From an uncultured Candidatus Saccharibacteria bacterium (GTDB taxonomy: Bacteria; Patescibacteriota; Minisyncoccia; Phycocordibacterales; JABMNX01), in the NCBI GenBank assembly GCA_964575755.1, contig CAZNRH010000001.1, positions 115,347 to 179,346 of the forward strand: DNA of 64,000 bases, read 5' to 3'. Made by a program: the position numbers and the translations under genes. Under the pieces are notes generated by a model that had not been told where the DNA came from, ran no database searches, and saw only the letters and a program-made list of their open reading frames with translations. Shown in pieces: positions 10,576-34,408 of the stretch. Position 1 is the stretch's first letter. Each line of letters opens with the position of its first letter.

Positions 10576-11343
10576 TTAAAAAGTTGGTACTACTGGCACA
10601 CTCTCGCTGTTAGAATCATTAAGAAGTGTTTCGATAACTCGGCGCATTGCTTCTATTGGCTGAGCTCCCTCAATTGGTGCTTGTTCTCCATTTACAAATA
10701 TAACATTATACGGTGTACCTCGTGCTCCTGATGCAATAACTTCGTCAAATTGAGCTTGAATCTTGTCTGTATACTTACCACTATCAACACAAGCTTGTAG
10801 TGCAACAGGGTCAATGTCAACATCTTCTGCTATCACAGAGAGTAGATTCAAATCAAGTCCATTATTTGACGGTGTGATTTCAAACAACCTATCTATATAA
10901 TCCCAAAACCCTTGATTGCCACCAAGTTCTGCTGCACACTCTGAAGCCTCGGCTTCTTTAGCAGCTTTTGAGTGGAGTTGAGTAATAGGAAAGTGTCTGT
11001 ATACCCATGCAACTTTTCCACTTGCTCCATACTCATCAATAATTTTATGCATGGTGCTGTGGAAGTTCTTACAGAACGGACACTCAAGATCAGAATACTC
11101 AACAATAATAACTTGTGCATTTGGGTTTCCTAGAATATGGTCACTGCCTGAAACCTCTGGAACACCAACCTGAGTTACAGGATCGGATTTAGTGTCTATC
11201 TTAATATCGTCTGGTTTGTTGCTAAAATATAAAGCACCTGCCACAAGGACACCAGCAATAATAATAGCTACAGGAATAGTGTATTTCTTATTATTGTTTA
11301 CCAATTCTACTTGATATTGTTGTTCGTTATTGTTTTCTTCCAT
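10576..11343 (-). CDS. DsbA-family thiol:disulfide oxidoreductase, membrane-anchored
   Basis: 255 aa; N-terminal TM helix; CPFC active site in a thioredoxin-fold context. Confidence 0.85.
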   Translation of the reverse strand: MEENNNEQQYQVELVNNNKKYTIPVAIIIAGVLVAGALYFSNKPDDIKIDTKSDPVTQVGVPEVSGSDHILGNPNAQVIIVEYSDLECPFCKNFHSTMHKIIDEYGASGKVAWVYRHFPITQLHSKAAKEAEASECAAELGGNQGFWDYIDRLFEITPSNNGLDLNLLSVIAEDVDIDPVALQACVDSGKYTDKIQAQFDEVIASGARGTPYNVIFVNGEQAPIEGAQPIEAMRRVIETLLNDSNSESVPVVPTF

Positions 11344-15367: not shown

Positions 15368-15485
15368 ATGAATCCCGTAGGAAATCACGGACACTAACAC
15401 TATATATGGAAAATAAGTCGATAATTAATAGAAAATCTAATCTAGAGACAAGGATTGTTTAAGTCCGTGTCCTATTTTGTACGGG
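15368..15485 (+). repeat. copy B of the duplicated upstream region, abutting the SET-domain gene start codon
   Basis: See copy A; the same cggg-ATG junction. Confidence 0.8.
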
Positions 15486-15887
15486 ATGAAAAATATTTTC
15501 GATAAAAAAGATTTTACAGTGGTCCGAGCGCGCAAGGGTGCTGGTCTTGGTATTGTTACTAATCGTTCTTTTAAAAATGGTGATTTCGTTATTGAGTATA
15601 CTGGGCCAATTCTTTCGAGAGATAAAGCTAATGAAAAAGGAGGGAAGTATCTTTTTGATATTAACTCGAAATGGGCTATAGACGGAACAACTAGAAGTAA
15701 TCTAGCACGGTATATTAATCATTCATGTAAACCAAACTGTGAAGCAGACGTTTCTGGTAAAAAGGTTTTTATCTATGCATTGAAAAGAATTAAAGAAGGG
15801 GAGGAACTGACCTATGATTATGGAGGAGAATATTTTGACGAGTATATAAAACCTTATGGATGCAAGTGTAGTAGTTGTATTTCTTAA
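15486..15887 (+). CDS. SET-domain protein-lysine N-methyltransferase
   Basis: GLGIVTNRSFKNGDFVIEYTGP (SET N region), INHSCKPNC (NHSC motif), ELTYDYG, C-terminal Cys cluster (post-SET CKCSSC). Confidence 0.8.
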   Translation: MKNIFDKKDFTVVRARKGAGLGIVTNRSFKNGDFVIEYTGPILSRDKANEKGGKYLFDINSKWAIDGTTRSNLARYINHSCKPNCEADVSGKKVFIYALKRIKEGEELTYDYGGEYFDEYIKPYGCKCSSCIS

Positions 15888-16324: not shown

Positions 16325-16595
16325 TGCTGTAAAAACTAAATCGAATAAATCTCAAAATCACTCTAAAAGATTAAACTCGACATAGTCATCTATCTAGTAG
16401 CTATTTGATGCGGGTATTGTATTACATTATGGATATAATGTCAATACTTTTGTAAACTAATAGTATTATGAGTATTTATGATTTTCTAAATATTTTAATG
16501 CAATTAAAGACATCATTTAAAATATAGTTTTCCAGTAATAGTAGTGGTTGCGCTGTAATTCATTTGATAGAATATAGAGTAACAATGCTCATACT

Positions 16596-17018
16596 ATGGA
16601 AGAAGATAAAGCAACAAATCAATTTGAAGAAAGTACAGATGCGCAAGTGGAAAGTCTTTCTGGGTCACCTCATGGCGCGCTTTATAATAAATATCTAAAA
16701 TTAATAAAAGATAAGTCCACATATCTCAAGATTTCTGCGCTTGCGGTTATATCAATTTTTATCATAGCAGGGACATCATCTTTATATTTTAAATTAATAG
16801 GCCCGAGCTTAGATGGGCAGTCGGACACTCAATATATTAATTTTACCTATCAGCAAAAAGAGGATATTTTAAAATCTTTAAGCAGTGATTCTATTCAAAC
16901 CAACGTGTCTTCAGAAGAAAAACATAAAGAATTGGACCAACTAGCCAAACAATCTGAAAATACGAGTCAATTAAGAGATTTCGAAAAAGTTAATATTTTA
17001 AAAAATTTAAGCCGATAA
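16596..17018 (+). CDS. hypothetical membrane-anchored protein
   Basis: 140 aa; single TM (ISALAVISIFIIAGTSSLYF); acidic/Ser-rich; precedes the secreted-protein cluster. Confidence 0.4.
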   Translation: MEEDKATNQFEESTDAQVESLSGSPHGALYNKYLKLIKDKSTYLKISALAVISIFIIAGTSSLYFKLIGPSLDGQSDTQYINFTYQQKEDILKSLSSDSIQTNVSSEEKHKELDQLAKQSENTSQLRDFEKVNILKNLSR

Positions 17019-17037
17019 CTCTAAAAGCAACAATTAT

Positions 17038-18204
17038 ATGCAAACACACAACATATTAGTTAGTAAAACAAGACAAAATAAAAGCAGAGTAACACTTTTT
17101 CTAATGGCTATAATTGTGTTAGTTGCCTTTTTTGCGATTGACTCTGGCTTACGTAATAAAGAAGTAAGTGCGGAAGTGTCTCATAATGTATCTGGATACG
17201 CGTGGAGCGATACAGTGGGGTGGATTAGTTTCAATTGCACCGATGCAGGCTTTTGCGGGACGTCAAATTACGGAGTCGGAGTTAACGAAGCTGATGGAGA
17301 TTTATTTGGTTATGCGTGGTCATCAAATATCGGTTGGATAAGTTTTAATGAAAGCGACCTCATAGGATGCCCTGGTGGTGGTACGTGTACAGCAAATCTT
17401 TCAGGAAGTACTCTTTCTGGCTGGGCTAAAGCACTTTCTTCGTCAGATTCTGAATCTGGAGGGTGGGATGGATGGATTAGTCTAGACGGGAGTGATTACG
17501 GAGTAACCTATGATTCTAATAGTGGTGAATTCAGTGGCTATGCATGGGGGTCTGCAATTATTGGTTGGGTAGATTTTAATCCTCAGTATGGCGGGGTAGT
17601 AAAAAGTGCTCTTATAGCGTCATTGTCAGTTTCTAGTTCAAATATATCTAATGGAGGTTCAGTAACTCTTACATGGACAAGCACCCTAGCAACAGACTGT
17701 TCTGGTACAAACTTCTCTACTGGAGGTGCGACGTCAGGGAACGTGGTTCTTACTCCGGATTCGACTACAACCTATACACTTACCTGTAGTAATAGTTTTG
17801 ATTCGGTAGATGATGTAAAAGAGGTACAGGTGTGGAATACAGAATGCGCTGATGGAGTAGATAATGATCTCGATGGAGATATAGATTTAGCTGATTTAGG
17901 TTGCTCTGGTCTGGGAGATGACAATGAGTCCAGTGCAGAATTTGTAGTAATGGATATTTCAGTTAGTGCACCATTTGTTCAGTCAGGGAATTCAGTAGTG
18001 ATAACGTGGAGTGCTACTGGTGTTAACAGTTGCTCAGTTACAGGAACTAATGGAGATTCTTGGTCAGGAATTTCTGGGTCACAAAACACAAGTGACATCT
18101 TTGAGCAAGTGATATATACACTTTCATGTTTGGATGTTGAAGATCATGCAACAACACCACAAAGTGTGACGGTATCTCTATCGCCAATATTCCAAGAGTT
18201 TTAA
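17038..18204 (+). CDS. secreted repeat protein (4x GYAWS-x-IGWISFN repeats plus two Ig-like Cys-containing domains)
   Basis: 388 aa; N-terminal signal anchor; tandem repeats SGYAWSDTVGWISFN / FGYAWSSNIGWISFN / GWDGWISLDG / SGYAWGSAIIGWVDFN; C-terminal beta-rich domains with conserved Cys pairs. Confidence 0.55.
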   Translation: MQTHNILVSKTRQNKSRVTLFLMAIIVLVAFFAIDSGLRNKEVSAEVSHNVSGYAWSDTVGWISFNCTDAGFCGTSNYGVGVNEADGDLFGYAWSSNIGWISFNESDLIGCPGGGTCTANLSGSTLSGWAKALSSSDSESGGWDGWISLDGSDYGVTYDSNSGEFSGYAWGSAIIGWVDFNPQYGGVVKSALIASLSVSSSNISNGGSVTLTWTSTLATDCSGTNFSTGGATSGNVVLTPDSTTTYTLTCSNSFDSVDDVKEVQVWNTECADGVDNDLDGDIDLADLGCSGLGDDNESSAEFVVMDISVSAPFVQSGNSVVITWSATGVNSCSVTGTNGDSWSGISGSQNTSDIFEQVIYTLSCLDVEDHATTPQSVTVSLSPIFQEF

Positions 18205-18228
18205 TTTTTTACATATGATAAACCATTC

Positions 18229-18981
18229 ATGAACCAATTACTCAACAACATAAAAACAAGCCTGAAAGAAAGCATTAAAGTAGCAACAATTGCACTCGCT
18301 ATTACTCTCGGCGTAACTTACGCATTTGCATCGTGGACTGGACCAGTAGCAACACCACCAAATAATAATGTAGAAGCACCTATTAATGTTGGTACAGTAG
18401 ATCAAATAAAGAGTGGTGGTCTTGGAGTTGATACACTTGCGGTGTATGGAAACGTTGGAGTATCTGGATATATACAGGTTGGAACTACAACTTCATCATG
18501 TAGCTCGGGTGTAGAGGGTGCTCTAAAATATGTCTCTGGTACTGGAATGCAGTATTGCAACGGCTCTTCATGGTCCACTTTGGGTGGTACAGGAGGTGAT
18601 GGTAGCTATACAGGATCCCTTACAACAGGTTCAAATACAGGAGCAGATTGTACAAACGCAGGAGGAGTTCCAATTGATATTGGTGGTGGAGACTATGTAT
18701 GTAAATTTATAAGTAGTTCTTGTGCGGCAGGTTGGACAAAGTACCTAGATTGGACCACAACGCAGACAACATCATGTACTGGGACGTCAAACCTATCTAG
18801 GTTGTGCTCCCCGACGTCTTGTACAACTTCTTCACATGTATTTTCAGACAATACACGAGAAACGTGTGGATATAGAGACAGTAACTACCAATCATGGGGT
18901 GGTGATGATTCAGGGACTTCTTGTACTCTTACTACTCAAAGAACATGTACCGCTTCAATACAGGAGATTGGTTGTTATTAA
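18229..18981 (+). CDS. secreted paralog 1 (conserved ~75-aa N-terminal cassette, Cys/Thr/Gly-rich C-terminus)
   Basis: 250 aa; N-terminus MNQLLNNIKTSLKESIKVATIALAITLGVTYAFASWTGP...PPNNNVEAPINVGTVDQIKSGGLGV is shared with the next two genes. Confidence 0.6.
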   Translation: MNQLLNNIKTSLKESIKVATIALAITLGVTYAFASWTGPVATPPNNNVEAPINVGTVDQIKSGGLGVDTLAVYGNVGVSGYIQVGTTTSSCSSGVEGALKYVSGTGMQYCNGSSWSTLGGTGGDGSYTGSLTTGSNTGADCTNAGGVPIDIGGGDYVCKFISSSCAAGWTKYLDWTTTQTTSCTGTSNLSRLCSPTSCTTSSHVFSDNTRETCGYRDSNYQSWGGDDSGTSCTLTTQRTCTASIQEIGCY

Positions 18982-18994
18982 AGTAAAAAACTCT

Positions 18995-20029
18995 ATGGAG
19001 CCACTTATCAGTAATATTAAAGAAAGCATTAAAGTAGCAACAATTGCACTCGCTATAACTTTAGGTGTAACCTACGCATTCGCATCATGGACAGGGCCTA
19101 CTTTGACACCACCAAACAATAATGTAGAAGCACCTATTAATGTTGGTACAGTAGATCAAATAAAAAGTGGGGGACTCGGAGTTAATACACTTGCGGTGTT
19201 TGGTAACGGAGCATTTAGTGGGTATCTAAAAGTTGGGAGTACTACATCAACATGCAATACTTCTCTAGAAGGATCATTACAATTCAAAACATCGGGTAAC
19301 AGTTGTTTACAATTGTGTGTTGATTCAGGTTGGCAGGATGTGAGTTGTGGGGATGTTCCGGTAACAGCTGTAAGTTGTAAAGAATTATTTGATTCAGGAG
19401 TTACCGAAAGTGGAATATATCAGATTTATCCAAATGACTTAACTCTTGATGTATATTGCGATATGGTCACTGAGGGAGGCGGGTGGACATTAATAGGCAA
19501 AATGACAGAGGATTCAGCTGTATGGTCTAAGGCAACAGAACCTGATTTATGGAGAACAACAGGGGTTCTTAATGATAGTGACCTAACTTTAGATCATGGA
19601 AATTCAAAGTATGAATCGTATAATAACGTTGAAGTAACTTATGTTATGGGTATATCTTATAACCCTGACGACGTGTTCGTGATACAACTCCCTGCAACAC
19701 ATTTAAATATGTACGACTTAATTATGAATGGACCAAATAATTATGGTACTGCAATAAAACAGCCACAAAGCGGTACTTATTTAAGTGGATATTCAAGTAG
19801 TGGTGGGCATACGGATTGGAAAATTAGACCCTATAGTTATCTTGAAGGGTGGAGAGGTGGAATGGCTTGGATTGGTTCTTCTTGGGAGTATTATGTGGAC
19901 TGTACTATGGCGGACAGAGAATCAACAGGTCTAGGGGTCTACCATTCTACTGCTACAGGTTGTAGCGGTTACTTATATGGTGCATGGGGAGTCAAAGGCC
20001 CTGACTATGCTACGTTATGGGTACGATAG
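18995..20029 (+). CDS. secreted paralog 2 with fibrinogen-related domain (FReD)-like region
   Basis: ATG at 18995 (the ORF-track N-terminal extension overlaps paralog 1 and is rejected); contains CKELFDSGVTESGIYQIYPNDLTLDVYCDMVTEGGGWTLIGKM, which matches the FReD signature ...VYCDM.T.GGGWTV... Confidence 0.6.
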   Translation: MEPLISNIKESIKVATIALAITLGVTYAFASWTGPTLTPPNNNVEAPINVGTVDQIKSGGLGVNTLAVFGNGAFSGYLKVGSTTSTCNTSLEGSLQFKTSGNSCLQLCVDSGWQDVSCGDVPVTAVSCKELFDSGVTESGIYQIYPNDLTLDVYCDMVTEGGGWTLIGKMTEDSAVWSKATEPDLWRTTGVLNDSDLTLDHGNSKYESYNNVEVTYVMGISYNPDDVFVIQLPATHLNMYDLIMNGPNNYGTAIKQPQSGTYLSGYSSSGGHTDWKIRPYSYLEGWRGGMAWIGSSWEYYVDCTMADRESTGLGVYHSTATGCSGYLYGAWGVKGPDYATLWVR

Positions 20030-20094
20030 CATATTGTTAATATATCCATAAATTATCGATACATTTTATTTTTTTATACACTCTATAAATAGTC

Positions 20095-20469
20095 ATGAAC
20101 CAATTACTCAACAACATAAAAACAAACATAAAAGATAGTATAAAAGTAGCTGTCTTAGCACTTGCTATTACACTAGGAGTAACCTATGTATTTGCAGCGT
20201 GGGTTGGACCCATAGCAACACCACCAAACAGCAATGTCTCGGCACCCATCAATGTAGGATCTACTGATCAGATTAAAGATGGAGGACTTGGTGTGGATAC
20301 ACTTTCTGTATTTGGAAATGGTGCATATTCAGGATATATACAAATAGGGCAGACAGCAGTTACATGCGGTGTTTTAACAGATGGGTCCCTACGTTTCAAT
20401 ACATCAAATAAGTGCTTACAATTATGTGTAGATTCAGGTTGGCAGGATGTCACATGCTCAACTCCATAA
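20095..20469 (+). CDS. secreted paralog 3 (short; retains the N-terminal cassette and the LQLCVDSGWQDVTC motif, lacks the FReD region)
   Basis: 124 aa; its first 30 nt are identical to paralog 1; ends just after the motif shared with paralog 2. Confidence 0.55.
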   Translation: MNQLLNNIKTNIKDSIKVAVLALAITLGVTYVFAAWVGPIATPPNSNVSAPINVGSTDQIKDGGLGVDTLSVFGNGAYSGYIQIGQTAVTCGVLTDGSLRFNTSNKCLQLCVDSGWQDVTCSTP

Positions 20470-20602
20470 AAACATTAATTCGGCGACTGTGTCGCCGAAT
20501 TAATCAAAACAGTCAAAAACAGTGTTATACTTTTTATGGTCTTATATATCCTGTTACGCTCTAGGTTTTACTTAGGGCTTTAATTATTAATAAAAACTAG
20601 TT

Positions 20603-21268
20603 ATGAAAAACACATATCTCACCTACGGGATAATTATTATTTTAACGCTAATAACTGCATCATATTTTATGTCATCACAATCAGAAGAAAATAACTTAGA
20701 CAAAACACCAGAAAGTACGACACCAACGCAAATAAATGACTCAAGTGTAGAAGAGACTATAACCACAAACATTTTGCAAAAAGACGAGGTATTTGTAGCA
20801 GTAATGTCTACATCAATGGGAGATATAACAATTAAATTAAACTCCAATGACGCGCCAAACACAGTCGCAAATTTCGTAAAATTAGCTAAAGGTGGATTTT
20901 ATGATGGAACGAAGTTTCATAGAGTAATTCCAGATTTCATGGTTCAAGGTGGAGACCCGTTAACGAAAGATGACTCTCTTATGGGTCAATGGGGTACAGG
21001 TGGTCCAGGGTATGCATTTGAAGATGAAATACATGAAAATAATTATAATAAAGTAGGAACAATATCAATGGCAAACTCTGGTCCAAATACAAACGGAAGC
21101 CAATTCTTTATAAATGTTGCAGATAATAATTTCCTAGATGGAAAACACACCGTATTTGGGATAATCACAGGTGGTATGGACGTAGTTAACAGTATCGCCT
21201 TAGTACCAACAGAGGGGGCGGATCGCCCAGTAGAGGCTGTCATTATTAATTTTGTGACAATTAAGTAA
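20603..21268 (+). CDS. ppiB: peptidyl-prolyl cis-trans isomerase, cyclophilin type, exported or membrane-anchored
   Basis: 221 aa; N-terminal TM/signal; cyclophilin motifs FHRVIPDFMVQGGDP, SMANSGPNTNGSQFFI. Confidence 0.9.
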   Translation: MKNTYLTYGIIIILTLITASYFMSSQSEENNLDKTPESTTPTQINDSSVEETITTNILQKDEVFVAVMSTSMGDITIKLNSNDAPNTVANFVKLAKGGFYDGTKFHRVIPDFMVQGGDPLTKDDSLMGQWGTGGPGYAFEDEIHENNYNKVGTISMANSGPNTNGSQFFINVADNNFLDGKHTVFGIITGGMDVVNSIALVPTEGADRPVEAVIINFVTIK

Positions 21269-21284
21269 ACAATATTCTGTATTT

Positions 21285-22958
21285 ATGAAGCAGGAAACAG
21301 CTCTCGGAATATTAAAGACAGGACGTAATGTGTACTTAACAGGCGCCGCTGGCGCTGGTAAGACACACGTACTTAATGAATATATTAAGTTTCTTAAAAA
21401 ACATAATGTAGGGGTAGGAGTTACTGCTTCAACAGGTATAGCTGCTACACACTTAGATGGCATGACCATACACGCATGGTCAGGTATAGGTATTAAAGAT
21501 TTTTTAACGGATTTTGATATTGATGCACTCACACAAAGACAGTCTCTAGTAAAACGTTTCGAACGCACAAGCGTGTTACTTATAGATGAAGTATCTATGT
21601 TGCGCCCAGAGATATTAGACATGATAGACCAGGTTTCGCGCGCTATGAAGCGGTCTGAAGAACCCTTCGGAGGTATGCAAGCAGTACTTTGTGGTGATTT
21701 CTTTCAACTGCCACCAGTAGTTCGTGGTGGCAACAGTGACTCTTTTGCTGACAGCGCACAAGCGTGGATAGATGGCGATTTCCGCATATGTTATTTAACT
21801 GAACAGTACAGGCAAAAAGGTGGAAAGTTGTTAAATATATTAAATGACATACGTGATGGAGAAATAAGTATTGAGTCACAAGAGTCCCTTGAAAGTAGAA
21901 TGAAAGCTGGTGCAGGACACAGTGAAAAGGTTGGCAAGAATAAGGCTCCACATATACACGACTCACGCGCAATAGTTTTACACACACATAATACTAATGT
22001 AGATACTCGCAATTACGAAGAATTATCTAAGCTAGACACAGAAAGTGTTTCTTTTGGGATGGTGTCAACAGGGCGAGCTAATCTAGTAGAGTCGTTAAAG
22101 AAAAACGTCCTAGCCCCAGTCGATTTAGAGTTAAAGGTAGGGGCACGTGTGATGTTTGTGAAGAACAGCCAAGAAAGAGAATACGTAAACGGTACACTGG
22201 GGGAAGTAATTGACCTTAATGGTTCGTATCCAATAGTAAAAGTAAACAGTGGTAGAGAAATCATGGCACATCCTGTGTCGTGGGAAATGGTTGATGACGG
22301 CAAGGTACTTGCTTCAGTCACACAGGTACCACTTCGTCTAGCTTGGGCAATTACAGTCCATAAAAGCCAAGGGATGAGCTTGGATAGAGTGGAAGTAGAT
22401 CTTTCGCGTGCATTTACCCCAGGGCAGGGTTATGTAGCGCTTTCTCGAGCCCGCACATTAGATGGACTTATTTTACATGGACTTAATGCGACTGCGCTCA
22501 GAGTCCATCCATATGTACAGGAGAGGGACGGCACTATGAAAACAGAATCAAATAAATGGGAGAAAATATTTAATGAATTTACACAAGCAAAAATATCAGA
22601 TTTACAAAAAGATTTTATACAAAAAGTTGGACGGACTAAAAGTGAAGTAGAAAAAGACAAGCCCATCCCGACACATTTAAAGACGCGTACGTATCTCGAG
22701 AGAAGTGAGTCGATAGAATCAATAGCAAAAGGGCGTGAAATGACAAAGGGTACTATTATTGCACACCTAGAAAAGTTAAAAGACGCAGGGGATTCAGATA
22801 TCTTTTCATACCTATCTCCAAGTACTGCACATATTGCCAAGATAAAGAAAGCGTTTAAGAAGTCAAAAGACACAAAACTAGCTCCAGTACACAAAATTTT
22901 AAAAGGGAAGTACAGCTACGATGAATTACGTCTAGCACGTTTATTCATTAATTATTAA
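21285..22958 (+). CDS. ATP-dependent DNA helicase, Pif1/RecD-like family, with a ~150-aa C-terminal extension
   Basis: Walker A GAAGAGKTHV; DEVSML; the GDFFQLPPV motif typical of Pif1; AITVHKSQGMSLD motif. Confidence 0.8.
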   Translation: MKQETALGILKTGRNVYLTGAAGAGKTHVLNEYIKFLKKHNVGVGVTASTGIAATHLDGMTIHAWSGIGIKDFLTDFDIDALTQRQSLVKRFERTSVLLIDEVSMLRPEILDMIDQVSRAMKRSEEPFGGMQAVLCGDFFQLPPVVRGGNSDSFADSAQAWIDGDFRICYLTEQYRQKGGKLLNILNDIRDGEISIESQESLESRMKAGAGHSEKVGKNKAPHIHDSRAIVLHTHNTNVDTRNYEELSKLDTESVSFGMVSTGRANLVESLKKNVLAPVDLELKVGARVMFVKNSQEREYVNGTLGEVIDLNGSYPIVKVNSGREIMAHPVSWEMVDDGKVLASVTQVPLRLAWAITVHKSQGMSLDRVEVDLSRAFTPGQGYVALSRARTLDGLILHGLNATALRVHPYVQERDGTMKTESNKWEKIFNEFTQAKISDLQKDFIQKVGRTKSEVEKDKPIPTHLKTRTYLERSESIESIAKGREMTKGTIIAHLEKLKDAGDSDIFSYLSPSTAHIAKIKKAFKKSKDTKLAPVHKILKGKYSYDELRLARLFINY

Positions 22959-22987
22959 ATATGTGCGAAGCTTAGCTTCGCACATAT
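22959..22987 (+). terminator. perfect 13-bp-stem hairpin immediately after the helicase stop (atatgtgcgaagc-tta-gcttcgcacatat)
   Basis: Palindrome seen directly; a second, shorter copy lies at about 23222..23248. Confidence 0.55.
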
Positions 22988-23119
22988 TTAAACTTGGCGG
23001 TCCAGCAGTCAAGTTTGAATACAGTATTCAGTGGTCGAACCGCTGTAGGAGTTATGCTTTTTAGATTTTAATTAGAAGTACAGTATATAAGTAAGTATTT
23101 AGATATTGAGAAAAAATAA

Positions 23120-23151
23120 AATCCGTCAACAGGTGCACCTGTTGACGGATT
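23120..23151 (-). terminator. perfect 32-nt palindrome (aatccgtcaacaggtgcacctgttgacggatt) with a T-run only on the minus strand
   Basis: 16+16 perfect inverted repeat centred on gtgcac; on the minus strand it is followed by ttatttttt. Confidence 0.5.
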
Positions 23152-23405
23152 ATGAGAATTGCTTAATGAACTATAGATCATTGTATGTAATATCACGTAC
23201 AATATATTTGTCAAATTTACTTACTATGTGCGAAGCTTAGCTTCGCACGCTTGCTTCAAGCAACGGCTAAAATACCTCTTCAAAAGACACAAAACTTACC
23301 CAAGTACAAATAAGATACTAATATCGATAAAAGTGATAGAATTACCATGGAAGCAGGGTATTTGGTAGACATATTGAATTAAATATAAAAAAAGATACTT
23401 ATTTT

Positions 23406-24947
23406 ATGATGAAACACAAGAAGAAAATTATTATAGCTGTTGCAGTAGGCATACTTGTTATTATAGTAAGGATGTTGTTTGGTGGGGCCGAAGAAATTTC
23501 ATACGACACTGTTATTGCAGAGCGTATTAACCTTGTTCAAGAAATCAACGCTGTCGGCAGAGTAGAAGCAGTTGAGAGCGTTGATCTTGCTTTTGAAAAC
23601 AGTGGTCGTGTTGCTAGGGTATATGTAGATGTGGGAGATAAGGTTTATAGAGGCGAGACTCTCGTCGTCCTTGGAAATTTAGAAGAAGTAGCGAAAATAG
23701 CGCAAGCTGAGGCTATCTTAGCTAAAAACGAGGCAAAGCTCTTAGAATTAAAAAATGGAGTGCGTCCAGAAGAAATACTTGTACAGAAAATAAAAGTCAA
23801 CAATACTGAGACTTCTTTGAGAGATGCAGTAAGGGGTATTGTGGACGAATTACGTGACTCATATACAAAAGCTGACGACTCTGTAAGAAGTAAGATAGAT
23901 CAATTCTTTAGTAATCCACGTACACCTAGTCCTCAGTTAGATTTTTACGCAGATTCTCAATTAAAAAGTGATATAGAACAAGAGAGGTTTTTTGTAGAAC
24001 TAATGTTAGGGGAGTGGGGTAATTCCTTACTCACCTTAACAAACTCAAGTGATATTGAAGCATATACAAGAGAAGCAAGCCAGAATCTTTCAATGATAAA
24101 ATCTTTGTTAGACAAATCCGGACTTGCTGTTAACAGCTTAACCGTTACAAGCAGTATCTCACAAACAACTATAGACGCATGGAAACTAGACGTATATACA
24201 GCGAGGATAAATATAAACACCGCAATAGCAAGTATCACGTCAGCAAATGAAAAAGTAGAAATAGCAAAGTCTAGCTTGTCGTTAGCTAAGCAAGAGCTTG
24301 CACTTAAAGAGTCTGGAACCATAGGGGAGTTGATAGTTGCACAAGAAGCACAAGTAAAAGAGTCTGAAGCTAATGTAAAATATTACAAAGCACAATTTAG
24401 GAAATCTATTATAAGCTCACCAATAAATGGGGTAGTCACTACACAAAACGCAAAGGTTGGGGAAATAGTAGCAGTTAATGCTGTGGTGGTTTCTATTATT
24501 TCAGATGGAGAATATGAAATAGAAGCGTTTGTAGTGGAGGCTGATATTGCCAATCTTAGAGTTGGTAATGTGGCAACTTTTTCACTCGATGCATATACAG
24601 AAGAAGAGATATTCACTGCGGTAGTTGAAAGTATTGACCCGGCAGCACAGTTATTTGAAGGAGTTGCAAATTATAGAACCATATTAAGACTACAAGATGT
24701 AGACGATAGGGTACGTGCAGGTATGACAGCAGACTTAGATATAGTTACAGATGAGCGAGAAAATGTAGTGTCTATTTTACAGAGAGCTGTTATTTTTAAA
24801 GACAATAAGAAAATAGTCAGGAAGCTTATTGATGGTGTTATTCAAGAAGTTGAAGTTAAAACAGGGACAACAGGAAACAGGGGGCAAATAGAAATACTTA
24901 GTGGAGTGGAAGAAGGTGACGTTATTGTGACATCAATCAAAAAATAA
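23406..24947 (+). CDS. HlyD-family periplasmic adaptor / membrane fusion protein
   Basis: 513 aa; N-terminal TM; long coiled-coil; biotinyl/lipoyl-like and beta-barrel regions; immediately upstream of an ABC ATPase and permeases. Confidence 0.8.
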   Translation: MMKHKKKIIIAVAVGILVIIVRMLFGGAEEISYDTVIAERINLVQEINAVGRVEAVESVDLAFENSGRVARVYVDVGDKVYRGETLVVLGNLEEVAKIAQAEAILAKNEAKLLELKNGVRPEEILVQKIKVNNTETSLRDAVRGIVDELRDSYTKADDSVRSKIDQFFSNPRTPSPQLDFYADSQLKSDIEQERFFVELMLGEWGNSLLTLTNSSDIEAYTREASQNLSMIKSLLDKSGLAVNSLTVTSSISQTTIDAWKLDVYTARININTAIASITSANEKVEIAKSSLSLAKQELALKESGTIGELIVAQEAQVKESEANVKYYKAQFRKSIISSPINGVVTTQNAKVGEIVAVNAVVVSIISDGEYEIEAFVVEADIANLRVGNVATFSLDAYTEEEIFTAVVESIDPAAQLFEGVANYRTILRLQDVDDRVRAGMTADLDIVTDERENVVSILQRAVIFKDNKKIVRKLIDGVIQEVEVKTGTTGNRGQIEILSGVEEGDVIVTSIKK

Positions 24948-24960
24948 ACTCAATATTATT

Positions 24961-25671
24961 ATGAATATAATTGAGGTAAAGAACATAGTACGAACATATG
25001 GAGATGTTGTAAAAACATATGCATTAAAAGATACATCCTTTTCAATTAAACAAGGTGAGTTTGTTTCTATTATGGGTCAGTCTGGTTCTGGTAAATCTAC
25101 CCTTATGCATGTTCTTGGTTTATTGGATAGAGCTACATCAGGTGAGTATTTGTTTGAAGGACGGGATGTATCTACACTAGACGATAATGAGTTAGCATTA
25201 ATACGTAATGAAAAGATAGGGTTTGTATTTCAGGCATTTAATTTACTTCCACGCACAACAGTATTAAAGAATACAATGTTGCCACTTAACTACTCAAGAG
25301 ATAAAACAGGTCATGAGGTAAAAGCAAAGGCTATTTTAGAGAAAGTCGGACTTGGTCATCGGTTAGACTATTTTACAAATCAAATCTCTGGAGGAGAAAA
25401 ACAACGCGTTGCGATAGCTAGAGCCCTTGTAAATAATCCATCAGTAATATTTGCAGATGAACCAACAGGAAATCTTGATTCAAAATCGGGAGATAGGGTT
25501 ATGCAAATCTTTCAAGAATTAAACAAAGAAGGACATACAGTTATCTTAGTAACTCACGAGAGAGAGACAGCGGGGTTTGCAGACCGTATTATCACCATAA
25601 AAGATGGAAGTATAATAAATGACAGCCCTGTGCAGAAAAAGAGCACAACAGATACAGTCAGTAGTAATTAA
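24961..25671 (+). CDS. ABC transporter ATP-binding protein (MacB/LolD-like)
   Basis: Walker [10 protein letters not shown], signature [15 protein letters not shown], Walker [12 protein letters not shown]. Confidence 0.95.
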
Positions 25672-25678
25672 ACCACGT

Positions 25679-26929
25679 ATGCTCGACAGAATTACAAAGT
25701 CAGTAGCTATATCTCTAGACTCGTTGTGGGCAAACAAAATACGAAGCCTTATTACCATGCTTGGTATCATTATTGGGGTTGCTTCCGTAGTATTAATTAT
25801 ATCAATAGGTGCTGGAGCTCAAGGTCTCATATTGTCTCAATTTGATAAACTCGGTACAAATCTAATAGTGGTATCTCCAGGGTACACAGAAGAAGGAGGG
25901 ACATTAGCTGTGCTTTCAAACTTTTCTATTACTACACTGAAATACGAAGACATATTGTATTTAAAAGATAACAGTGAAGCACCTAACATAACGTCAGTCT
26001 CTGGATTTAGTAAGGGTTTTGGATTAGTAACATGGCGTTCAGAAAGCTATGATACTTCATTAAATGGAACTACGGCAAGTTATCTAGATGTAGAAAAAAG
26101 TGAGATAGAAATAGGTCGTTTTTTTACAGAAGAAGAGGAGAGGAATTTTTCACGAGTAGCAGTTTTAGGTAGTGCTGTAAAAGAGGGTTTATTTGGAGAA
26201 AGTGATGCAGTTGGACAGCGTATTAGGATAAATGATTCAAGTTATAACGTTATAGGTGTAATAAAAGAGCGTGGAAGTATAGGGATAGAAGATTTTGATG
26301 ATCAGATTCTACTTCCTGTAAAGACTTTTCAACGCTCTGTCGGTGTTAACCATATGGGGCTTATTCGAATACGTGTAGATGTAGAGGAAAATGTAAATAA
26401 AACAATCGAAGATATCAAAATATTATTAAGAGAACAGCATGACATTAGAGATCAAAGTGGCAAGAGTGACGATTTTACAGTAGCTAGTTCCGTACAAGCT
26501 GCTGGCATCATAACAACAATCACAGACAGTATTCGTTATTTTTTAACAGCGATGGCAACGCTTTCTTTGGTGGTTGGCGGAATAGGCATTATGAATATCA
26601 TGTTAATTTCAGTTACTGAACGCACTAGAGAGATAGGTTTAAGAAAGTCTATAGGTGCAAACAATACAGTTGTATTGGAGCAGTTTTTGTTTGAGGCGGT
26701 TATTGTGACAGGAATAGGTGGCTTGATTGGCGTGATTCTCGGTGTAGCATCTTCTTTTATTATTTCAACAGTAATCCAATTACTTGGGTTTAGTTGGGTG
26801 TTTGTCGTTTCAATAGAATCAATATCACTTGCTTTATTTGTGTCAGTATTTATAGGATTGTTTTTTGGATTTTATCCTGCTTATAAAGCCAGTAAACTAG
26901 ACCCTATAGAAGCCTTACGTTATGAATAA
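25679..26929 (+). CDS. ABC transporter permease, FtsX/MacB family
   Basis: ATG at 25679 in frame with ORF 25619..; N-terminal TM, a large periplasmic domain, C-terminal FtsX-like 3-TM bundle (LSLVVGGIGIMNIMLISVTERTREIGLRKSIGA). Confidence 0.85.
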   Translation: MLDRITKSVAISLDSLWANKIRSLITMLGIIIGVASVVLIISIGAGAQGLILSQFDKLGTNLIVVSPGYTEEGGTLAVLSNFSITTLKYEDILYLKDNSEAPNITSVSGFSKGFGLVTWRSESYDTSLNGTTASYLDVEKSEIEIGRFFTEEEERNFSRVAVLGSAVKEGLFGESDAVGQRIRINDSSYNVIGVIKERGSIGIEDFDDQILLPVKTFQRSVGVNHMGLIRIRVDVEENVNKTIEDIKILLREQHDIRDQSGKSDDFTVASSVQAAGIITTITDSIRYFLTAMATLSLVVGGIGIMNIMLISVTERTREIGLRKSIGANNTVVLEQFLFEAVIVTGIGGLIGVILGVASSFIISTVIQLLGFSWVFVVSIESISLALFVSVFIGLFFGFYPAYKASKLDPIEALRYE

Positions 26930-26949
26930 ATTTGCATACAAATAGAAAA

Positions 26950-28242
26950 ATGGACATAATTATTACATCAATAGAATCAGCGCTTACAGCCTTTAAAGCA
27001 AATAAAATACGCACAGCTCTTGCTGTGCTTGGGATTACAATTGGTATTATAAGTATCATTATAGTCTTTGTTGCTGGAGAAGGGATGAGAGGTTTACTTA
27101 ATGAGCAAGTAGAATCCTTTGGGGCAGATGTAGTGCAGACTGAAGTTAAAGTCCCGTCTAGTAAAAAAGGTTTTGCTGGTGAAAAACAAAGTGCAGCAAG
27201 TTTACTTCTAGGGGCTCAGGTTACAACAATGAAGATTGATGACCTAGAAGACGTTCTCGAACTACCAAATATTTTGGCAGGATACGGGCTTTTTATGACA
27301 CAAGAATCCGTGTCTTATCGTTCTGAAATAGAGAGTGTAACTATGTGGGCTACAAGCGCTGCATTTATTGATATAGATCAGACCGGTGTAGGAAGTGGGC
27401 GGTTTTTCTCAGAAGCAGAGAATCGTTCTTTGTCCCAAGTTGCAGTCTTAGGGTCTGAAATAAAAGAAAAATTATTTGGAGAGAGTGACCCAGTAGGTAA
27501 GACAATCAAGGTACGTAATACACGATTCCGTGTGATTGGTGTTATGGAAGAGCGTGGGAGTGTTATGTCCATGAATTTCGACACAATGGTATATGTCCCA
27601 ATTAAGACACTGCAAAAAAGGGTAATGGGAATTGACCACATACTTAGCTTCATGGTGAAAATAGAAGATATGAGCAAAGTAGATTCAACAATGGAAGATA
27701 TACGAGTTATCTTGAGGGATAATCACGACATAGATCCACCAGAAGAAATAAGGAAAAGTATTTTCGATACAGGTAAGGACGATTTCCGCGTAGTTTCTAT
27801 GATAGAGGCACTTGAGATATTTGACAGTGTATATTTTTACCTTACGTTATTATTGCTCTCAATAGTTGCGATATCGCTAGTAGTTGGAGGAGTAGGGGTT
27901 ATGAATGTTATGTACGTAATAGTAAATGAGCGCACCCCAGAGATAGGTTTAAGGAAAGCGGTTGGAGCAACATACAGAGACATAATGGCACAGCTTCTTA
28001 TAGAGTCGGTACTTATAACTCTAGTGGGAGGAGTTGTAGGAGTGATAATTGGAATAATGATAGCTTTTGGAATATCGATTGGTGCAGAGTCTATGGGATT
28101 CACATGGAAGTTCGTAGTACCAATAGAGGCATTTATAACAGCATTTCTATTCTCAGTAGTATTCGGTGTTGTGTTTGGACTTTATCCAGCGCGCAAAGCA
28201 GCACGTATGAATCCAATAGAAGCACTACAGCACAATAAATAA
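26950..28242 (+). CDS. ABC transporter permease, FtsX/MacB family (second paralog)
   Basis: Same architecture (VVGGVGVMNVMYVIVNERTPEIGLRKAVGA); start chosen at ATG 26950 (TTG at 26932 is also possible). Confidence 0.85.
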   Translation: MDIIITSIESALTAFKANKIRTALAVLGITIGIISIIIVFVAGEGMRGLLNEQVESFGADVVQTEVKVPSSKKGFAGEKQSAASLLLGAQVTTMKIDDLEDVLELPNILAGYGLFMTQESVSYRSEIESVTMWATSAAFIDIDQTGVGSGRFFSEAENRSLSQVAVLGSEIKEKLFGESDPVGKTIKVRNTRFRVIGVMEERGSVMSMNFDTMVYVPIKTLQKRVMGIDHILSFMVKIEDMSKVDSTMEDIRVILRDNHDIDPPEEIRKSIFDTGKDDFRVVSMIEALEIFDSVYFYLTLLLLSIVAISLVVGGVGVMNVMYVIVNERTPEIGLRKAVGATYRDIMAQLLIESVLITLVGGVVGVIIGIMIAFGISIGAESMGFTWKFVVPIEAFITAFLFSVVFGVVFGLYPARKAARMNPIEALQHNK

Positions 28243-33836: not shown

Positions 33837-34408
33837 CACTTATCCTATTGTTTCCATTAGGGGTGGACTATATCATCATCCTTTTACACATGAAGTGTGA
33901 AGTGGGATGCAAGGCGCTTCGACCCTGTAAACTACAGGGGCTACTCCCGTAAGGGATAGTCTCTGAACCTTCAATGCACATAAGTGCAAAGCTTGGCTGC
34001 TGATTGCCCACAACATTACTTGCTAGGGTTTCCAGACAGTTCACCTTGTTTTCAATCCATGATTACTCATGAATGCTGCGTTTTCCGCCATGTACTTCTC
34101 TGTAACAATTTGCGCATAGGAGTATGCATCTATCTGCTTCAGCCTTTATTTTCTCCCAAGATCTGGTAAGTCCGCGGACAGACAGAATTCTTTTTGAGAT
34201 GGATCAAGGTGGTGCAAATCAAATGCTTCTGCATAACAACTATATCCACAAAGTTTACATTTACCGCCTTTATACTCAATGACCATTTGCTTCAACTTTC
34301 GTCGACGTTTTGCAACGGCTTTTATTAAGTACTCTCTGCGATCAGCGTACGTTCTTTTATCTGACATAGTATAAGTATACTATGTAAATTAGACGGGAAT
34401 TGTGTTCC
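33837..34408 (-). mobile_element. group I-like self-splicing intron carrying an HNH homing-endonuclease ORF
   Basis: 5' exon ends in U; the intron ends in G; candidate IGS GCAGC (complement of 34074..34078) pairs with exon end GCUGU including a U-G wobble; P2 hairpin CAUGA-GUAA-UCAUG; P7 strands GACUA...UAGUC; P9 hairpin CCUAAUGGAAACAAUAGG before omega-G. Confidence 0.65.
34146..34367 (-). CDS. HNH endonuclease (intron-encoded)
   Basis: 73 aa; CKLCGY ... FDLHHLDP (CxxC plus HH of the HNH motif); lies entirely inside the tRNA intervening sequence. Confidence 0.7.
   Translation of the reverse strand: MSDKRTYADRREYLIKAVAKRRRKLKQMVIEYKGGKCKLCGYSCYAEAFDLHHLDPSQKEFCLSADLPDLGRK

What the first reader, a model, noticed from the sequence alone, without database searches (positions are those of the whole stretch)
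18229..20469. Tandem family of secreted paralogs with a recombining 5' cassette; one carries a fibrinogen-related (FReD) domain
Three adjacent genes share an N-terminal module of about 75 aa (long n-region signal peptide plus SWTGP...PPNNNVEAPINVGTVDQIKSGGLGV). Paralogs 1 and 2 share identical nucleotide runs of 35 and 47 nt, and paralogs 1 and 3 share an identical first 30 nt, which points to recent gene conversion. Their C-termini are unrelated. Paralog 2 carries an unmistakable FReD signature (CKELFDSG...SGIYQIYPN...VYCDMVTEGGGWTL), a eukaryote-typical carbohydrate-binding domain that is rare in bacteria. Paralog 3 looks like a truncated copy of paralog 2 that ends before the FReD. This is a candidate host-attachment or antigenic-variation locus for an episymbiotic lifestyle.
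Basis: partly seen in the sequence, partly recalled or inferred. Interest (0 to 1): 0.55.

Follow-up and report, generated by a model that had tools for sequence, protein, structure and literature searches.

The report
Swappable-head secreted protein array, Patescibacteria
Three neighbouring genes in a candidate-phyla-radiation bacterium encode secreted proteins with one shared front end and different (or no) binding heads, one of them fibrinogen-like; they belong to a large undescribed family that probably lets these tiny episymbionts recognise host surfaces.

Summary
P1 (18229-18981), P2 (18995-20029) and P3 (20095-20469) share a Sec signal peptide and a conserved module of about 85 residues that starts at an invariant WTGP. 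Exact nucleotide runs of 47, 38 and 31 nt occur, and synonymous sites show a mosaic pattern best explained by short-tract gene conversion.

P2's head is a true fibrinogen-related domain, but of the curated bacterial type (NCBIfam GGGWT_bact). Only its A and B subdomains are recognisable; the ligand-binding P subdomain is not. This domain type is common in metagenomes, so it is not a rare eukaryotic import.

P3 is not simply a truncated copy of P2. It is a mosaic, and "headless" forms ending at the same junction recur in other arrays.

The N-module defines a family without a Pfam or NCBIfam model. It has at least 430 members, almost all in Patescibacteria, and none in two phage collections. At least seven unrelated heads are fused at one fixed junction. 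Members often lie in same-strand tandem arrays whose content differs between close relatives.

In 41 of 78 loci a membrane protein with GYAWS..GWISFN repeats lies directly beside the array, as at 17038-18204.

The best reading is a modular surface adhesin system analogous to Bdellovibrio MAT fibres. Secretion, display and host binding are inferred, not shown.

The parts
17038..18204 (+). Partner gene (388 aa): N-terminal transmembrane segment, four GYAWS..GWISFN-type repeats, an acidic double-disulfide repeat and a C-terminal beta-rich region. It lies directly upstream of the array.
   Evidence: Translation. No Pfam hit; weak NCBIfam acid_disulf_rpt hit; weak PHROG virion-structural hit. Homologues lie adjacent on the same strand to N-module genes in 41 of 78 genome loci, median gap 37 nt. 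Syntenic in L002, L084 and L085.
18229..18981 (+). Paralog 1 (250 aa). Signal peptide is residues 1-34 (18229-18330, AFA|SW). The constant N-module runs to about residue 118. The head is a disulfide-rich domain of about 132 aa (18583-18978) ending GCY.
   Evidence: The head is shared with P0006, P0009, P0010, P0011 and P0012, with invariant Cys and a terminal GCY. No Pfam, NCBIfam or PHROG hit. A full-length ortholog lies at the same array position in L085.
18995..20029 (+). Paralog 2 (344 aa). Signal peptide is residues 1-30 (18995-19084). The N-module runs to ...CLQLCVDSGWQDVSCG. The head is a bacterial-type fibrinogen-related domain (19346-20026).
   Evidence: PF00147 35 bits. NF040941 GGGWT_bact 48.6 bits. 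AlphaFold2 model confident for head residues 1-140 and 221-227. Foldseek top PDB hits are intelectin-1, ficolins, FGL1 and angiopoietins, probability 1.0.
20095..20469 (+). Paralog 3 (124 aa): signal peptide plus N-module only (headless), ending 5 residues after the junction Trp-x-Asp-Val-Thr-Cys.
   Evidence: Recurrent headless homologues P0215 (120 aa), P0239 (124 aa) and P0270 lie inside other arrays. No head remnant downstream.
18265..18302 (+). 38-nt tract identical to 19019-19056 in P2 (signal-peptide region).
   Evidence: In codons 12-25, 12 of 13 codons for conserved residues are identical.
18364..18410 (+). 47-nt tract identical to 19118-19164 in P2 (NNNVEAPINVGTVDQIK).
   Evidence: In codons 41-61, 18 of 20 codons are identical, whereas P3 and the L002 ortholog use other codons there.
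18229..18259 (+). 31-nt tract identical to 20095-20125 (start of P3).
   Evidence: 9 of 9 codons are identical in the first 11 codons against 28 of 58 elsewhere, p=0.003.
19304..19341 (+). 38-nt box at the 3' edge of the N-module (CLQLCVDSGWQDV), 92% identical to 20413-20450 in P3. It lies immediately before the point where heads differ.
   Evidence: repeat family D2. The same peptide box precedes at least seven different heads in homologues.
20474..20504 (.). Perfect 14-bp inverted repeat with a 3-nt loop, 5 nt after the P3 stop. It is a likely end of the transcription unit, although the T-run rule is met only on the minus strand.
   Evidence: I5.

Best explanation
The locus is a chromosomal array of modular, Sec-secreted surface proteins from a family specific to Patescibacteria.

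Each protein has a signal peptide that is probably cleaved at or one residue before an invariant Trp. The mature protein then starts with a constant module of about 85 residues (WTGP..PP..NV.APINVG..DQ.K.GGLGV..LAVFGN ... G.L.[FY]...C...W). After a fixed junction comes an interchangeable C-terminal head.

In this window the heads are:
- P1: an uncharacterised disulfide-rich domain.
- P2: a bacterial-type fibrinogen-related domain.
- P3: none.

Inferred function: the constant module docks or assembles the protein on the cell surface, probably as a trimeric fibre. It probably works together with the co-conserved GYAWS-repeat membrane protein encoded next door. The heads bind ligands, probably glycans, on the surface of the host bacterium.

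The repertoire diversifies in three ways: tandem duplication, replacement of whole heads at the junction, and short-tract gene conversion that homogenises patches of the constant module.

Shown: family membership, the processing-site pattern, the fixed junction with many heads, arrays and their turnover between relatives, the mosaic synonymous-site pattern, the FReD A/B fold, and linkage to the GYAWS gene.

Inferred: actual secretion and cleavage, oligomeric state, surface anchoring, the role of the partner protein, and ligand and host binding.
For: Family and taxonomy:
- A profile of the N-module finds at least 430 proteins.
- It finds 166 stretches in GTDB species representatives, overwhelmingly Paceibacterota, Kaiserbacteria, Nomurabacteria and other Patescibacteria.
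- It finds none in IMG/VR or INPHARED.

Processing site: position -1 is Ala in 127 of 138 members and W is invariant. A median of 27 residues precedes W, with an uncharged stretch of about 19 residues.

Heads on the same module:
- PF05268 Gp38-like, PF13884 Peptidase_S74, PF00147 FReD, PF21722 glycine-rich and PF06594.
- PF01391 collagen repeats.
- The Cys-rich GCY head.
- For the CLQLC subtype the sequences diverge right after W.DV[ST]C.

Oligomeric state: the collagen and S74 modules are specific to trimers, based on established knowledge and PMC10769870.

Arrays: 28 of 80 sequences searched with the N-module profile (78 genome loci, the duplicate contig L001 and the window) carry 2-5 copies, all on the same strand.

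Turnover between relatives:
- The syntenic relative L002 (73-83% nucleotide identity) has one gene with a different head between the same flanking genes.
- L085 has the P1 ortholog, then a different second head, then a headless copy, then a further copy.

Gene conversion.

FReD. FReD-like folds also occur in cyanophage tail-fibre-like proteins, and Fibrinogen_C has been noted in giant surface proteins of another patescibacterium as an adhesion candidate (PMC13059738).

Partner gene adjacency: 41 of 78 loci.

Chromosomal context: rpoB, rpoC, dnaG, rpoD, hisS, uppP, lexA, truB and priA.
Against: - There is no experimental or expression evidence.
- The AlphaFold2 monomer model of P1 is poor (pLDDT 58). 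The constant module (residues 36-95) is predicted as low-confidence coil, so its fold, oligomeric state and any docking role are unknown.
- No recognisable anchor is present: no LPXTG, lipobox or C-terminal TM. If the signal peptide is cleaved, the proteins could simply be released.
- P2's putative ligand-binding region (head residues 143-217) is unmodelled (pLDDT<50). It lacks an identifiable Ca2+ site or acetyl pocket.
- The MSA used for the P2 head model contained two animal-type FReDs, which may bias the model slightly. A bacterial-only profile aligns animal FReDs only over positions 5-160 of 229.
- The organism's lifestyle is not known from the window.
Confidence: 0.6

Rival explanations
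1. This is a programmed antigenic or phase-variation system. One expressed gene would be rewritten from neighbouring donor cassettes by gene conversion, as in pilE/pilS, or by site-specific recombination, as in a shufflon. P3 would be a silent or partial cassette.
For: The 5' cassette is conserved, with conversion tracts. A conserved box sits at the head junction. A headless copy is present. An 18-mer at the P3 stop resembles the P1/P3 start sequence (D3).
Against: - Every copy has its own ATG, full signal peptide and intact ORF.
- All copies are in direct orientation.
- No invertase, recombinase or reverse transcriptase was found among the 26 window ORFs scanned.
- The conversion tracts lie in the constant part, not the variable part.
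- Headless forms are conserved as such in other genomes.
- No population data exist.
Confidence: 0.12
2. The proteins are released soluble factors, either secreted lectins or bacteriocin-like binding proteins, rather than cell-anchored adhesins.
For: A cleavable Sec-type signal is present and no known anchor motif. Most members are small, with a median of 207 aa.
Against: - The segment right after the signal peptide is extremely conserved across the family. This fits a docking or assembly function better than a linker.
- There is tight linkage to a membrane protein.
- No immunity-like small genes are evident.
- The heads are of binding type: S74-terminated tail-fibre, collagen, Gp38-like and FReD.
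Confidence: 0.13
3. The N-module is a polymerising subunit of a new non-type-IV surface filament. Headless and short forms would be the major subunits, and head-bearing forms would be tip or decorating subunits.
For: Headless and roughly 200-aa forms are abundant and recurrent. The module does not fold as a monomer in AlphaFold2. Arrays mix short and long forms.
Against: No sortase, usher or pilus-assembly ATPase is adjacent. There is no class III signal peptide or conserved Glu5. Collagen and S74 modules argue for trimers rather than polymers.
Confidence: 0.1
4. The genes are remnant phage tail-fibre (receptor-binding protein) genes of a cryptic prophage.
For: Distant family members carry the Peptidase_S74 tail-fibre C-terminus and hit many PHROG tail-fibre families. 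A few of those alignments reach into the N-module region. P2 weakly hits phrog_1959, and the partner gene weakly hits a virion structural PHROG.
Against: - The flanks are housekeeping genes, and no phage genes were found.
- The proteins carry Sec signal peptides.
- There are no relatives in 2.9 million IMG/VR contigs or in INPHARED.
- Chromosomal synteny is conserved in relatives.
Confidence: 0.04
5. The shared tracts are an assembly artefact, either collapse or chimera.
For: The source is a metagenome-type assembly, and repeats of 31-47 nt could confuse short k-mers.
Against: A second public contig is identical over 11 kb. The copies differ at 12-24% of positions, so reads resolve them. The same architecture is seen in many independent assemblies.
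Confidence: 0.01

Closest known systems
Bdellovibrio bacteriovorus MAT (mosaic adhesive trimer) fibre superfamily (Caulton et al. 2024, PMC10769870)
   Same: - A multi-gene family in a bacterium that lives on other bacteria.
- A signal peptide is followed immediately by a conserved N-terminal domain.
- The C-terminal tips are variable and mosaic.
- The family has S74 and non-S74 subfamilies.
- The tips are related to phage tail fibres.
- The proposed role is prey or host recognition, with the constant N-domain proposed to bind a cell-surface element.
   Different: - The proteins here are much shorter (124-344 aa against about 600-1,100 aa) and have little or no beta-helical shaft.
- The N-module is about 85 aa, has a WTGP start, and has no demonstrated homology to the MAT N-domain (not tested).
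- The host lineage is Patescibacteria.
- The genes are arranged in tandem arrays beside a GYAWS-repeat gene.
- Trimerisation and surface location are not shown.
NCBIfam NF040941 GGGWT_bact / Pfam PF00147 fibrinogen-related domain (ficolins, intelectins, tachylectin 5A)
   Same: - The P2 head passes both curated thresholds.
- It has the SC...YCDM..GGGWT disulfide motif and the terminal ...WVR strand.
- Its model superposes on intelectin and ficolin structures.
- The overall layout, a secreted stalk plus a FReD head, resembles a ficolin.
   Different: - Only the A and B subdomains are conserved.
- The P subdomain, with the Ca2+ site and the acetyl or diol pocket of the animal lectins, is not identifiable.
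- P2 has no collagen stalk, although some family members do carry collagen repeats.
- The ligand is unknown.
Phage tail fibres / receptor-binding proteins with modular tip exchange (T4 Gp37/Gp38, K1F endosialidase-type S74 fibres)
   Same: The N-terminal attachment part is constant and the C-terminal binding modules are exchangeable. The same tip families occur: Gp38-like, S74 and FReD-like.
   Different: The proteins here are cellular, carry a Sec signal and are chromosomal. They are absent from two phage collections.
Shufflon PilV / pilE-pilS type variable adhesins
   Same: The N-terminus is constant and the C-terminus is variable. Recombination acts among linked copies.
   Different: There is no prepilin signal, no invertase and no inverted sfx-type repeats. 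All copies are complete genes.

Membership tests
Fibrinogen-related domain (Pfam PF00147) | Significant HMM match above the gathering threshold | tested here: met
   35 bits against a cut-off of 22, E=1.8e-8. Only profile positions 4-53 of 221 are covered.
Fibrinogen-related domain (Pfam PF00147) | A-subdomain disulfide and YCDM..GGGWT core, B-subdomain sheet, C-terminal strand returning to the sheet | tested here: met
   SCKELF...VYCDMVTEGGGWT and terminal TLWVR align with family columns. AlphaFold2 pLDDT is above 80 for head residues 11-130 and 221-227. Foldseek probability is 1.0 to intelectin, ficolin, FGL1 and angiopoietin, TM 0.4-0.5.
Fibrinogen-related domain (Pfam PF00147) | P subdomain with a Ca2+ site and a ligand pocket as in ficolins or intelectins | tested here: inconclusive
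   Head residues 143-217 have pLDDT<50. A bacterial-only profile aligns animal FReDs only to positions 5-160 of 229. No DxDxD-type Ca2+ motif is seen in the sequence.
NCBIfam NF040941 GGGWT_bact | Domain model score above the curated cut-off | tested here: met
   48.6 bits against a cut-off of 30, P2 residues 127-167 covering model positions 1-46 of 46.
Bdellovibrio MAT fibre superfamily | Signal peptide followed directly by a family-wide conserved N-terminal domain; variable C-terminal tips; S74 and non-S74 members | tested here: met
   These architectural features are present across the family. The three window genes are all non-S74.
Bdellovibrio MAT fibre superfamily | Sequence or structural homology of the N-terminal domain to the MAT N-domain | not tested
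No Bdellovibrio locus was among the 78 loci kept, but that search was restricted by a pattern.
Bdellovibrio MAT fibre superfamily | Intertwined trimeric beta-prism/beta-helix fibre on the cell surface | not testable with these tools
   Only monomer AlphaFold2 was available, and the module came out as low-confidence coil. Trimer-specific modules (collagen, S74) in relatives are indirect support.
Phage tail fibre / prophage | Location in a phage genome or prophage next to other virion genes | tested here: not met
   The neighbours are housekeeping genes. There are no relatives in IMG/VR or INPHARED.
Type IV pilin / shufflon PilV | Class III signal peptide (G|F/M...E5), invertase and inverted recombination sites | tested here: not met
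   The leader is Sec type I-like (A-x-A|[AS]W). Only short, chance-level inverted repeats occur, and no recombinase was found.
Diversity-generating retroelement target | Nearby reverse transcriptase and a template repeat matching a C-terminal variable region | tested here: not met
   No RT domain was found among the neighbours and no TR/VR-type repeat.

The most novel reading that the evidence does not exclude
Patescibacteria carry a phylum-wide, undescribed two-component surface-display apparatus. One component is a membrane-anchored GYAWS-repeat protein. The other is a set of secreted proteins whose mature N-terminus (WTGP...APINVG...LAVFGN) is a new docking or assembly signal. Plug-in heads, including a ficolin-like FReD, are exchanged at a fixed junction. 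On this reading the apparatus is the episymbiont's host-range determinant, alongside or instead of type IV pili, and its repertoire is reshuffled by duplication, head swapping and gene conversion.
Probability: 0.3. Interest if true: 0.75.

Novelty: new variant of a known kind. Interest (0 to 1): 0.55.

Why it matters
How ultrasmall episymbiotic Patescibacteria choose and bind their hosts is largely unknown beyond type IV pili.

This locus points to a large, unannotated family with several features that make it a concrete candidate for host recognition:
- It has no Pfam or NCBIfam model.
- Its heads are interchangeable.
- Its array content differs between close relatives.
- It has a tightly linked membrane partner.

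The family can be tested with recombinant heads, glycan arrays, multimer modelling and the few cultivable co-cultures.

The analysis also corrects the view that the FReD found here is a rare eukaryote-like acquisition. It belongs to a widespread bacterial and phage branch of the fold.

Tried and rejected
- The AlphaFold2 monomer model of full-length P1 (MSA of 36 sequences) gave pLDDT 58. The N-module was coil and the head was unreliable, so I did not use it for fold search.
- The word-indexed homologue search with the P2 head alone found almost nothing (4 hits). The exhaustive HMMER search was needed.
- I first counted P0226 (129 aa) as a headless form. Its "stop" lies in the last roughly 20 nt of a contig, which diverge completely from the sister-sample contig that encodes a 398-aa protein. 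I discarded it.
- The profile of the head alignment against PDB matched FReDs over nearly the full length. That profile contained two animal-type sequences. I repeated it with bacterial-only sequences and coverage shrank to positions 5-160 of 229.
- I looked for recombinases, reverse transcriptases, prophage genes and meaningful inverted repeats around the array. None were found.
- I looked for a tRNA split by the group I intron at 33844-34117. None was found with ARAGORN, with or without splicing.
- The PDB sequence search with the GYAWS-repeat protein was uninformative.
- Literature searches found no description of the N-module family.
Full report
**What is there**

The region holds three same-strand genes:
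- P1: 18229-18981, 250 aa.
- P2: 18995-20029, 344 aa. Its real start is MEPLISNIK, 13 nt after the P1 stop. The 397-aa mechanical ORF from 18836 is not the gene.
- P3: 20095-20469, 124 aa.

A perfect 14-bp hairpin follows at 20474-20504. Gene calls on an identical public contig agree, and that 11,086-bp contig is 100% identical to window 16367-27452.

The window is an ordinary bacterial chromosome. It carries rpoB, rpoC, dnaG, rpoD, hisS, uppP, a DsbA-like thioredoxin, lexA, truB, priA, a cyclophilin, a Pif1 helicase and MacB-type transporters. No phage genes, recombinases or reverse transcriptases were found among the 26 ORFs scanned. Relatives of the locus are overwhelmingly Patescibacteria.

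**Check of the observation**

The three proteins align without gaps over the first 100 columns, apart from four missing codons in P2, and share a further motif to about residue 115.

Exact nucleotide runs:
- P1/P2: 47 nt and 38 nt.
- P1/P3: 31 nt.

Shuffling codon columns gives p<=1e-4 for P1/P2 and p=0.002 for P1/P3. P2/P3 shows no excess.

The pattern holds at synonymous sites. The table counts identical codons among codons that encode the same residue in both proteins.

| Pair | Region | Identical codons |
|---|---|---|
| P1/P2 | codons 12-25 | 12/13 |
| P1/P2 | codons 41-61 | 18/20 |
| P1/P2 | codons 26-40 | 5/13 |
| P1/P2 | codons 62-80 | 8/14 |
| P1/P2 | codons 81-100 | 3/10 |
| P1/P3 | first 11 codons | 9/9 |
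| P1/P3 | all later codons | 28/58 |

For P1/P2, the two patches together against the rest give Fisher p=3e-5. For P1/P3, p=0.003.

P3 and the ortholog in a related genome use other codons in those patches. Codon preference or peptide constraint therefore does not explain them.

P2 and P3 are only 64% identical over the module, yet they share a 38-nt box at 92% identity at its 3' edge (19304-19341 and 20413-20450).

The modules are therefore mosaics. Short-tract gene conversion between tandem copies is the simplest explanation.

**The P2 head**

- Pfam Fibrinogen_C matches P2 residues 127-174 only, at 35 bits.
- NCBIfam's bacterial model NF040941 (GGGWT_bact, "fibrinogen-like YCDxxxxGGGW domain") matches at 48.6 bits against a cut-off of 30.
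- PDB sequence hits are tachylectin-5A, angiopoietins, ficolins, fibrinogen chains and intelectins. All match over the first 50-100 head residues.
- An exhaustive HMMER search of 1.84 billion cluster representatives found 1,479 relatives. Of these, 124 had E<=1e-10. Many are giant proteins with up to 15 matched stretches.
- Local iteration shows that the whole 227-residue head, from SCKELF to TLWVR, aligns end to end with these domains.
- An AlphaFold2 model (25-sequence MSA) has pLDDT 70. It is confident for head residues 1-140 and for the last strand, and below 50 for residues 143-217.
- Foldseek returns only FReD proteins at probability 1.0, with TM 0.4-0.5.
- In the viral structure library the best matches are cyanophage proteins, including "tail fiber-like" and Fibrinogen_C proteins.

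A profile built without the two animal-type sequences aligns animal FReDs only over positions 5-160 of 229.

Conclusion: P2 carries a genuine FReD-superfamily domain of the bacterial and phage branch. Its A and B subdomains are conserved. Its P subdomain is unrecognisable, so the ligand cannot be inferred.

Fibrinogen_C domains have already been noted in giant surface proteins of another patescibacterium as adhesion candidates (PMC13059738).

**The constant module defines an undescribed family**

No Pfam, NCBIfam or PHROG model covers it.

Search results:
- The first search recovered 39 proteins sharing it.
- A profile search found at least 430.
- A scan of one genome per GTDB species found 166 stretches, mostly Paceibacterota, Kaiserbacteria, Nomurabacteria, Taylorbacteria, Nealsonbacteria and unclassified Patescibacteria.
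- There are no relatives in IMG/VR or INPHARED.

In 138 members with a complete N-terminus the invariant Trp is preceded by Ala in 127. Position -3 is V, A or L. A median of 27 residues precedes the Trp, with an uncharged stretch of about 19 residues. This is a type I signal-peptidase pattern. In P1-P3 the likely site is AFA|S or VFA|A, one residue earlier.

Conservation this strong at the very start of the mature protein, across a family with unrelated C-termini, suggests a docking or assembly function. That is an inference.

**Heads are exchanged at a fixed junction**

In the CLQLC subtype the sequences are colinear up to W.DV[ST]C and then diverge at once.

| Protein | What follows the junction |
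|---|---|
| P2 | FReD |
| P0002, P0005 | Gp38-like glycine-rich head |
| 398-aa protein of L083 | a different glycine-rich head |
| P0003 | beta-rich unknown head |
| P0004 | another unknown head |
| P0217 | Trp/Cys-rich head |
| P3, P0215, P0239, P0270 | stop codon |

The P1 subtype carries one of the following:
- The disulfide-rich GCY head, which is shared by six proteins and has seven invariant Cys.
- A glycine-rich head.
- Another head, P0008.

More distant members carry Peptidase_S74 tail-fibre ends or collagen triple-helix repeats. Both module types are specific to trimers, which is indirect support for a trimeric fibre.

**Arrays and turnover**

Of the 80 sequences searched with the N-module profile (78 genome loci, the duplicate contig L001 and the window), 28 hold two to five N-module genes, always on the same strand.

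L002 is a syntenic relative at 73-83% nucleotide identity. It has a single N-module gene with a different head between the same 388-aa gene and the cyclophilin.

L085 has, after the same 388-aa gene:
1. A full-length P1 ortholog.
2. A second gene with a non-FReD head.
3. A headless copy.
4. A further copy.

Another population has the order long, long, headless, long.

P3 is therefore a member of a recurrent headless class rather than a decayed copy of P2. No head remnant follows it. One apparent headless form, P0226, proved to be a contig-end artefact and was dropped.

**A linked partner**

The 388-aa protein upstream (17038-18204) has an N-terminal transmembrane segment and GYAWS..GWISFN repeats.

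Its homologues occur in 47 of 78 loci. In 41 of them they lie directly adjacent on the same strand, with a median gap of 37 nt. Many of the loci without one are truncated by contig ends.

This is the strongest contextual clue. It suggests a two-component system. The partner's role is not known.

**Interpretation**

The architecture has four features:
- A signal peptide.
- A constant N-domain.
- Mosaic tips drawn from the phage-fibre repertoire.
- S74 and non-S74 members.

Together with the lifestyle context, this most closely parallels the Bdellovibrio MAT fibres, which sit on the predator surface and recognise prey glycans (PMC10769870). Homology of the N-domains was not tested.

I rate the adhesin/display model at 0.6. 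The rivals are:
- Programmed antigenic variation: 0.12.
- Released soluble lectins: 0.13.
- Filament subunits: 0.10.
- Prophage remnant: 0.04.
- Assembly artefact: 0.01.

**Verdict**

It is not categorically new in concept. I classify it as a new variant of a known kind, with interest 0.55.

Noticed in passing
window 33844-34117 (-): A complete group I intron (Rfam RF00028, 72.7 bits against a gathering score of 50). It lies in a stretch with no rRNA hit and no tRNA detectable by ARAGORN, with or without trial splicing. Its host gene is unidentified.
   Followed up: partly
window 17038-18204 and loci L003-L078: A family of membrane proteins with GYAWS..GWISFN repeats and no Pfam model. It lies directly next to N-module genes in 41 of 78 genome loci. 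It is itself an undescribed, widely conserved patescibacterial family.
   Followed up: partly
L011, L016, L019, L029, L030 (also L047, L050, L074): N-module genes, mostly with the GYAWS partner, occur in MAGs labelled Hyphomicrobium/Hyphomicrobiales/Alphaproteobacteria. One is on a 964-kb contig. Others occur in Ignavibacteriaceae, Gammaproteobacteria and Nanoarchaeia bins. The Hyphomicrobiales/Alphaproteobacteria-labelled loci have GC of 54-61%, similar to Kaiserbacteria loci. This could be mis-binned epibionts or real transfer.
   Followed up: partly
window 20457-20474: The 18-mer CTCAACTCCATAAAAACA spans the P3 stop codon and matches 16 of 18 bases of the sequence at the start of P1 and P3 (CTCAACAACATAAAAACA). 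It could be a scar of a deletion that joined a module end to the 5' end of a lost downstream copy, or it could be chance.
   Followed up: no
proteins P0045, P0047, P0051: Metagenomic giant proteins (3,100-4,500 aa) carry 14-15 tandem stretches matching the bacterial FReD-like domain. P0166 and P0015 independently combine the WTGP N-module with a FReD-like head.
   Followed up: partly
window 15477-15887 (+): A 136-aa protein with a strong SET-domain match (PF00856, E=8e-26). This is a eukaryote-typical lysine-methyltransferase fold in a reduced bacterial genome.
   Followed up: no
window 10576-11343 (-): A DsbA-like thioredoxin (PF13462/PF01323) about 7 kb upstream. It fits a need for extracytoplasmic disulfide formation in the Cys-rich secreted proteins of the array.
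   Followed up: no
L084 1840-1859 versus L083: The last roughly 20 nt of contig L084 diverge completely from the sister-sample contig. This creates an apparent 129-aa headless protein (P0226) out of a 398-aa gene. It is a reminder that contig ends can fake truncated paralogs.
   Followed up: yes
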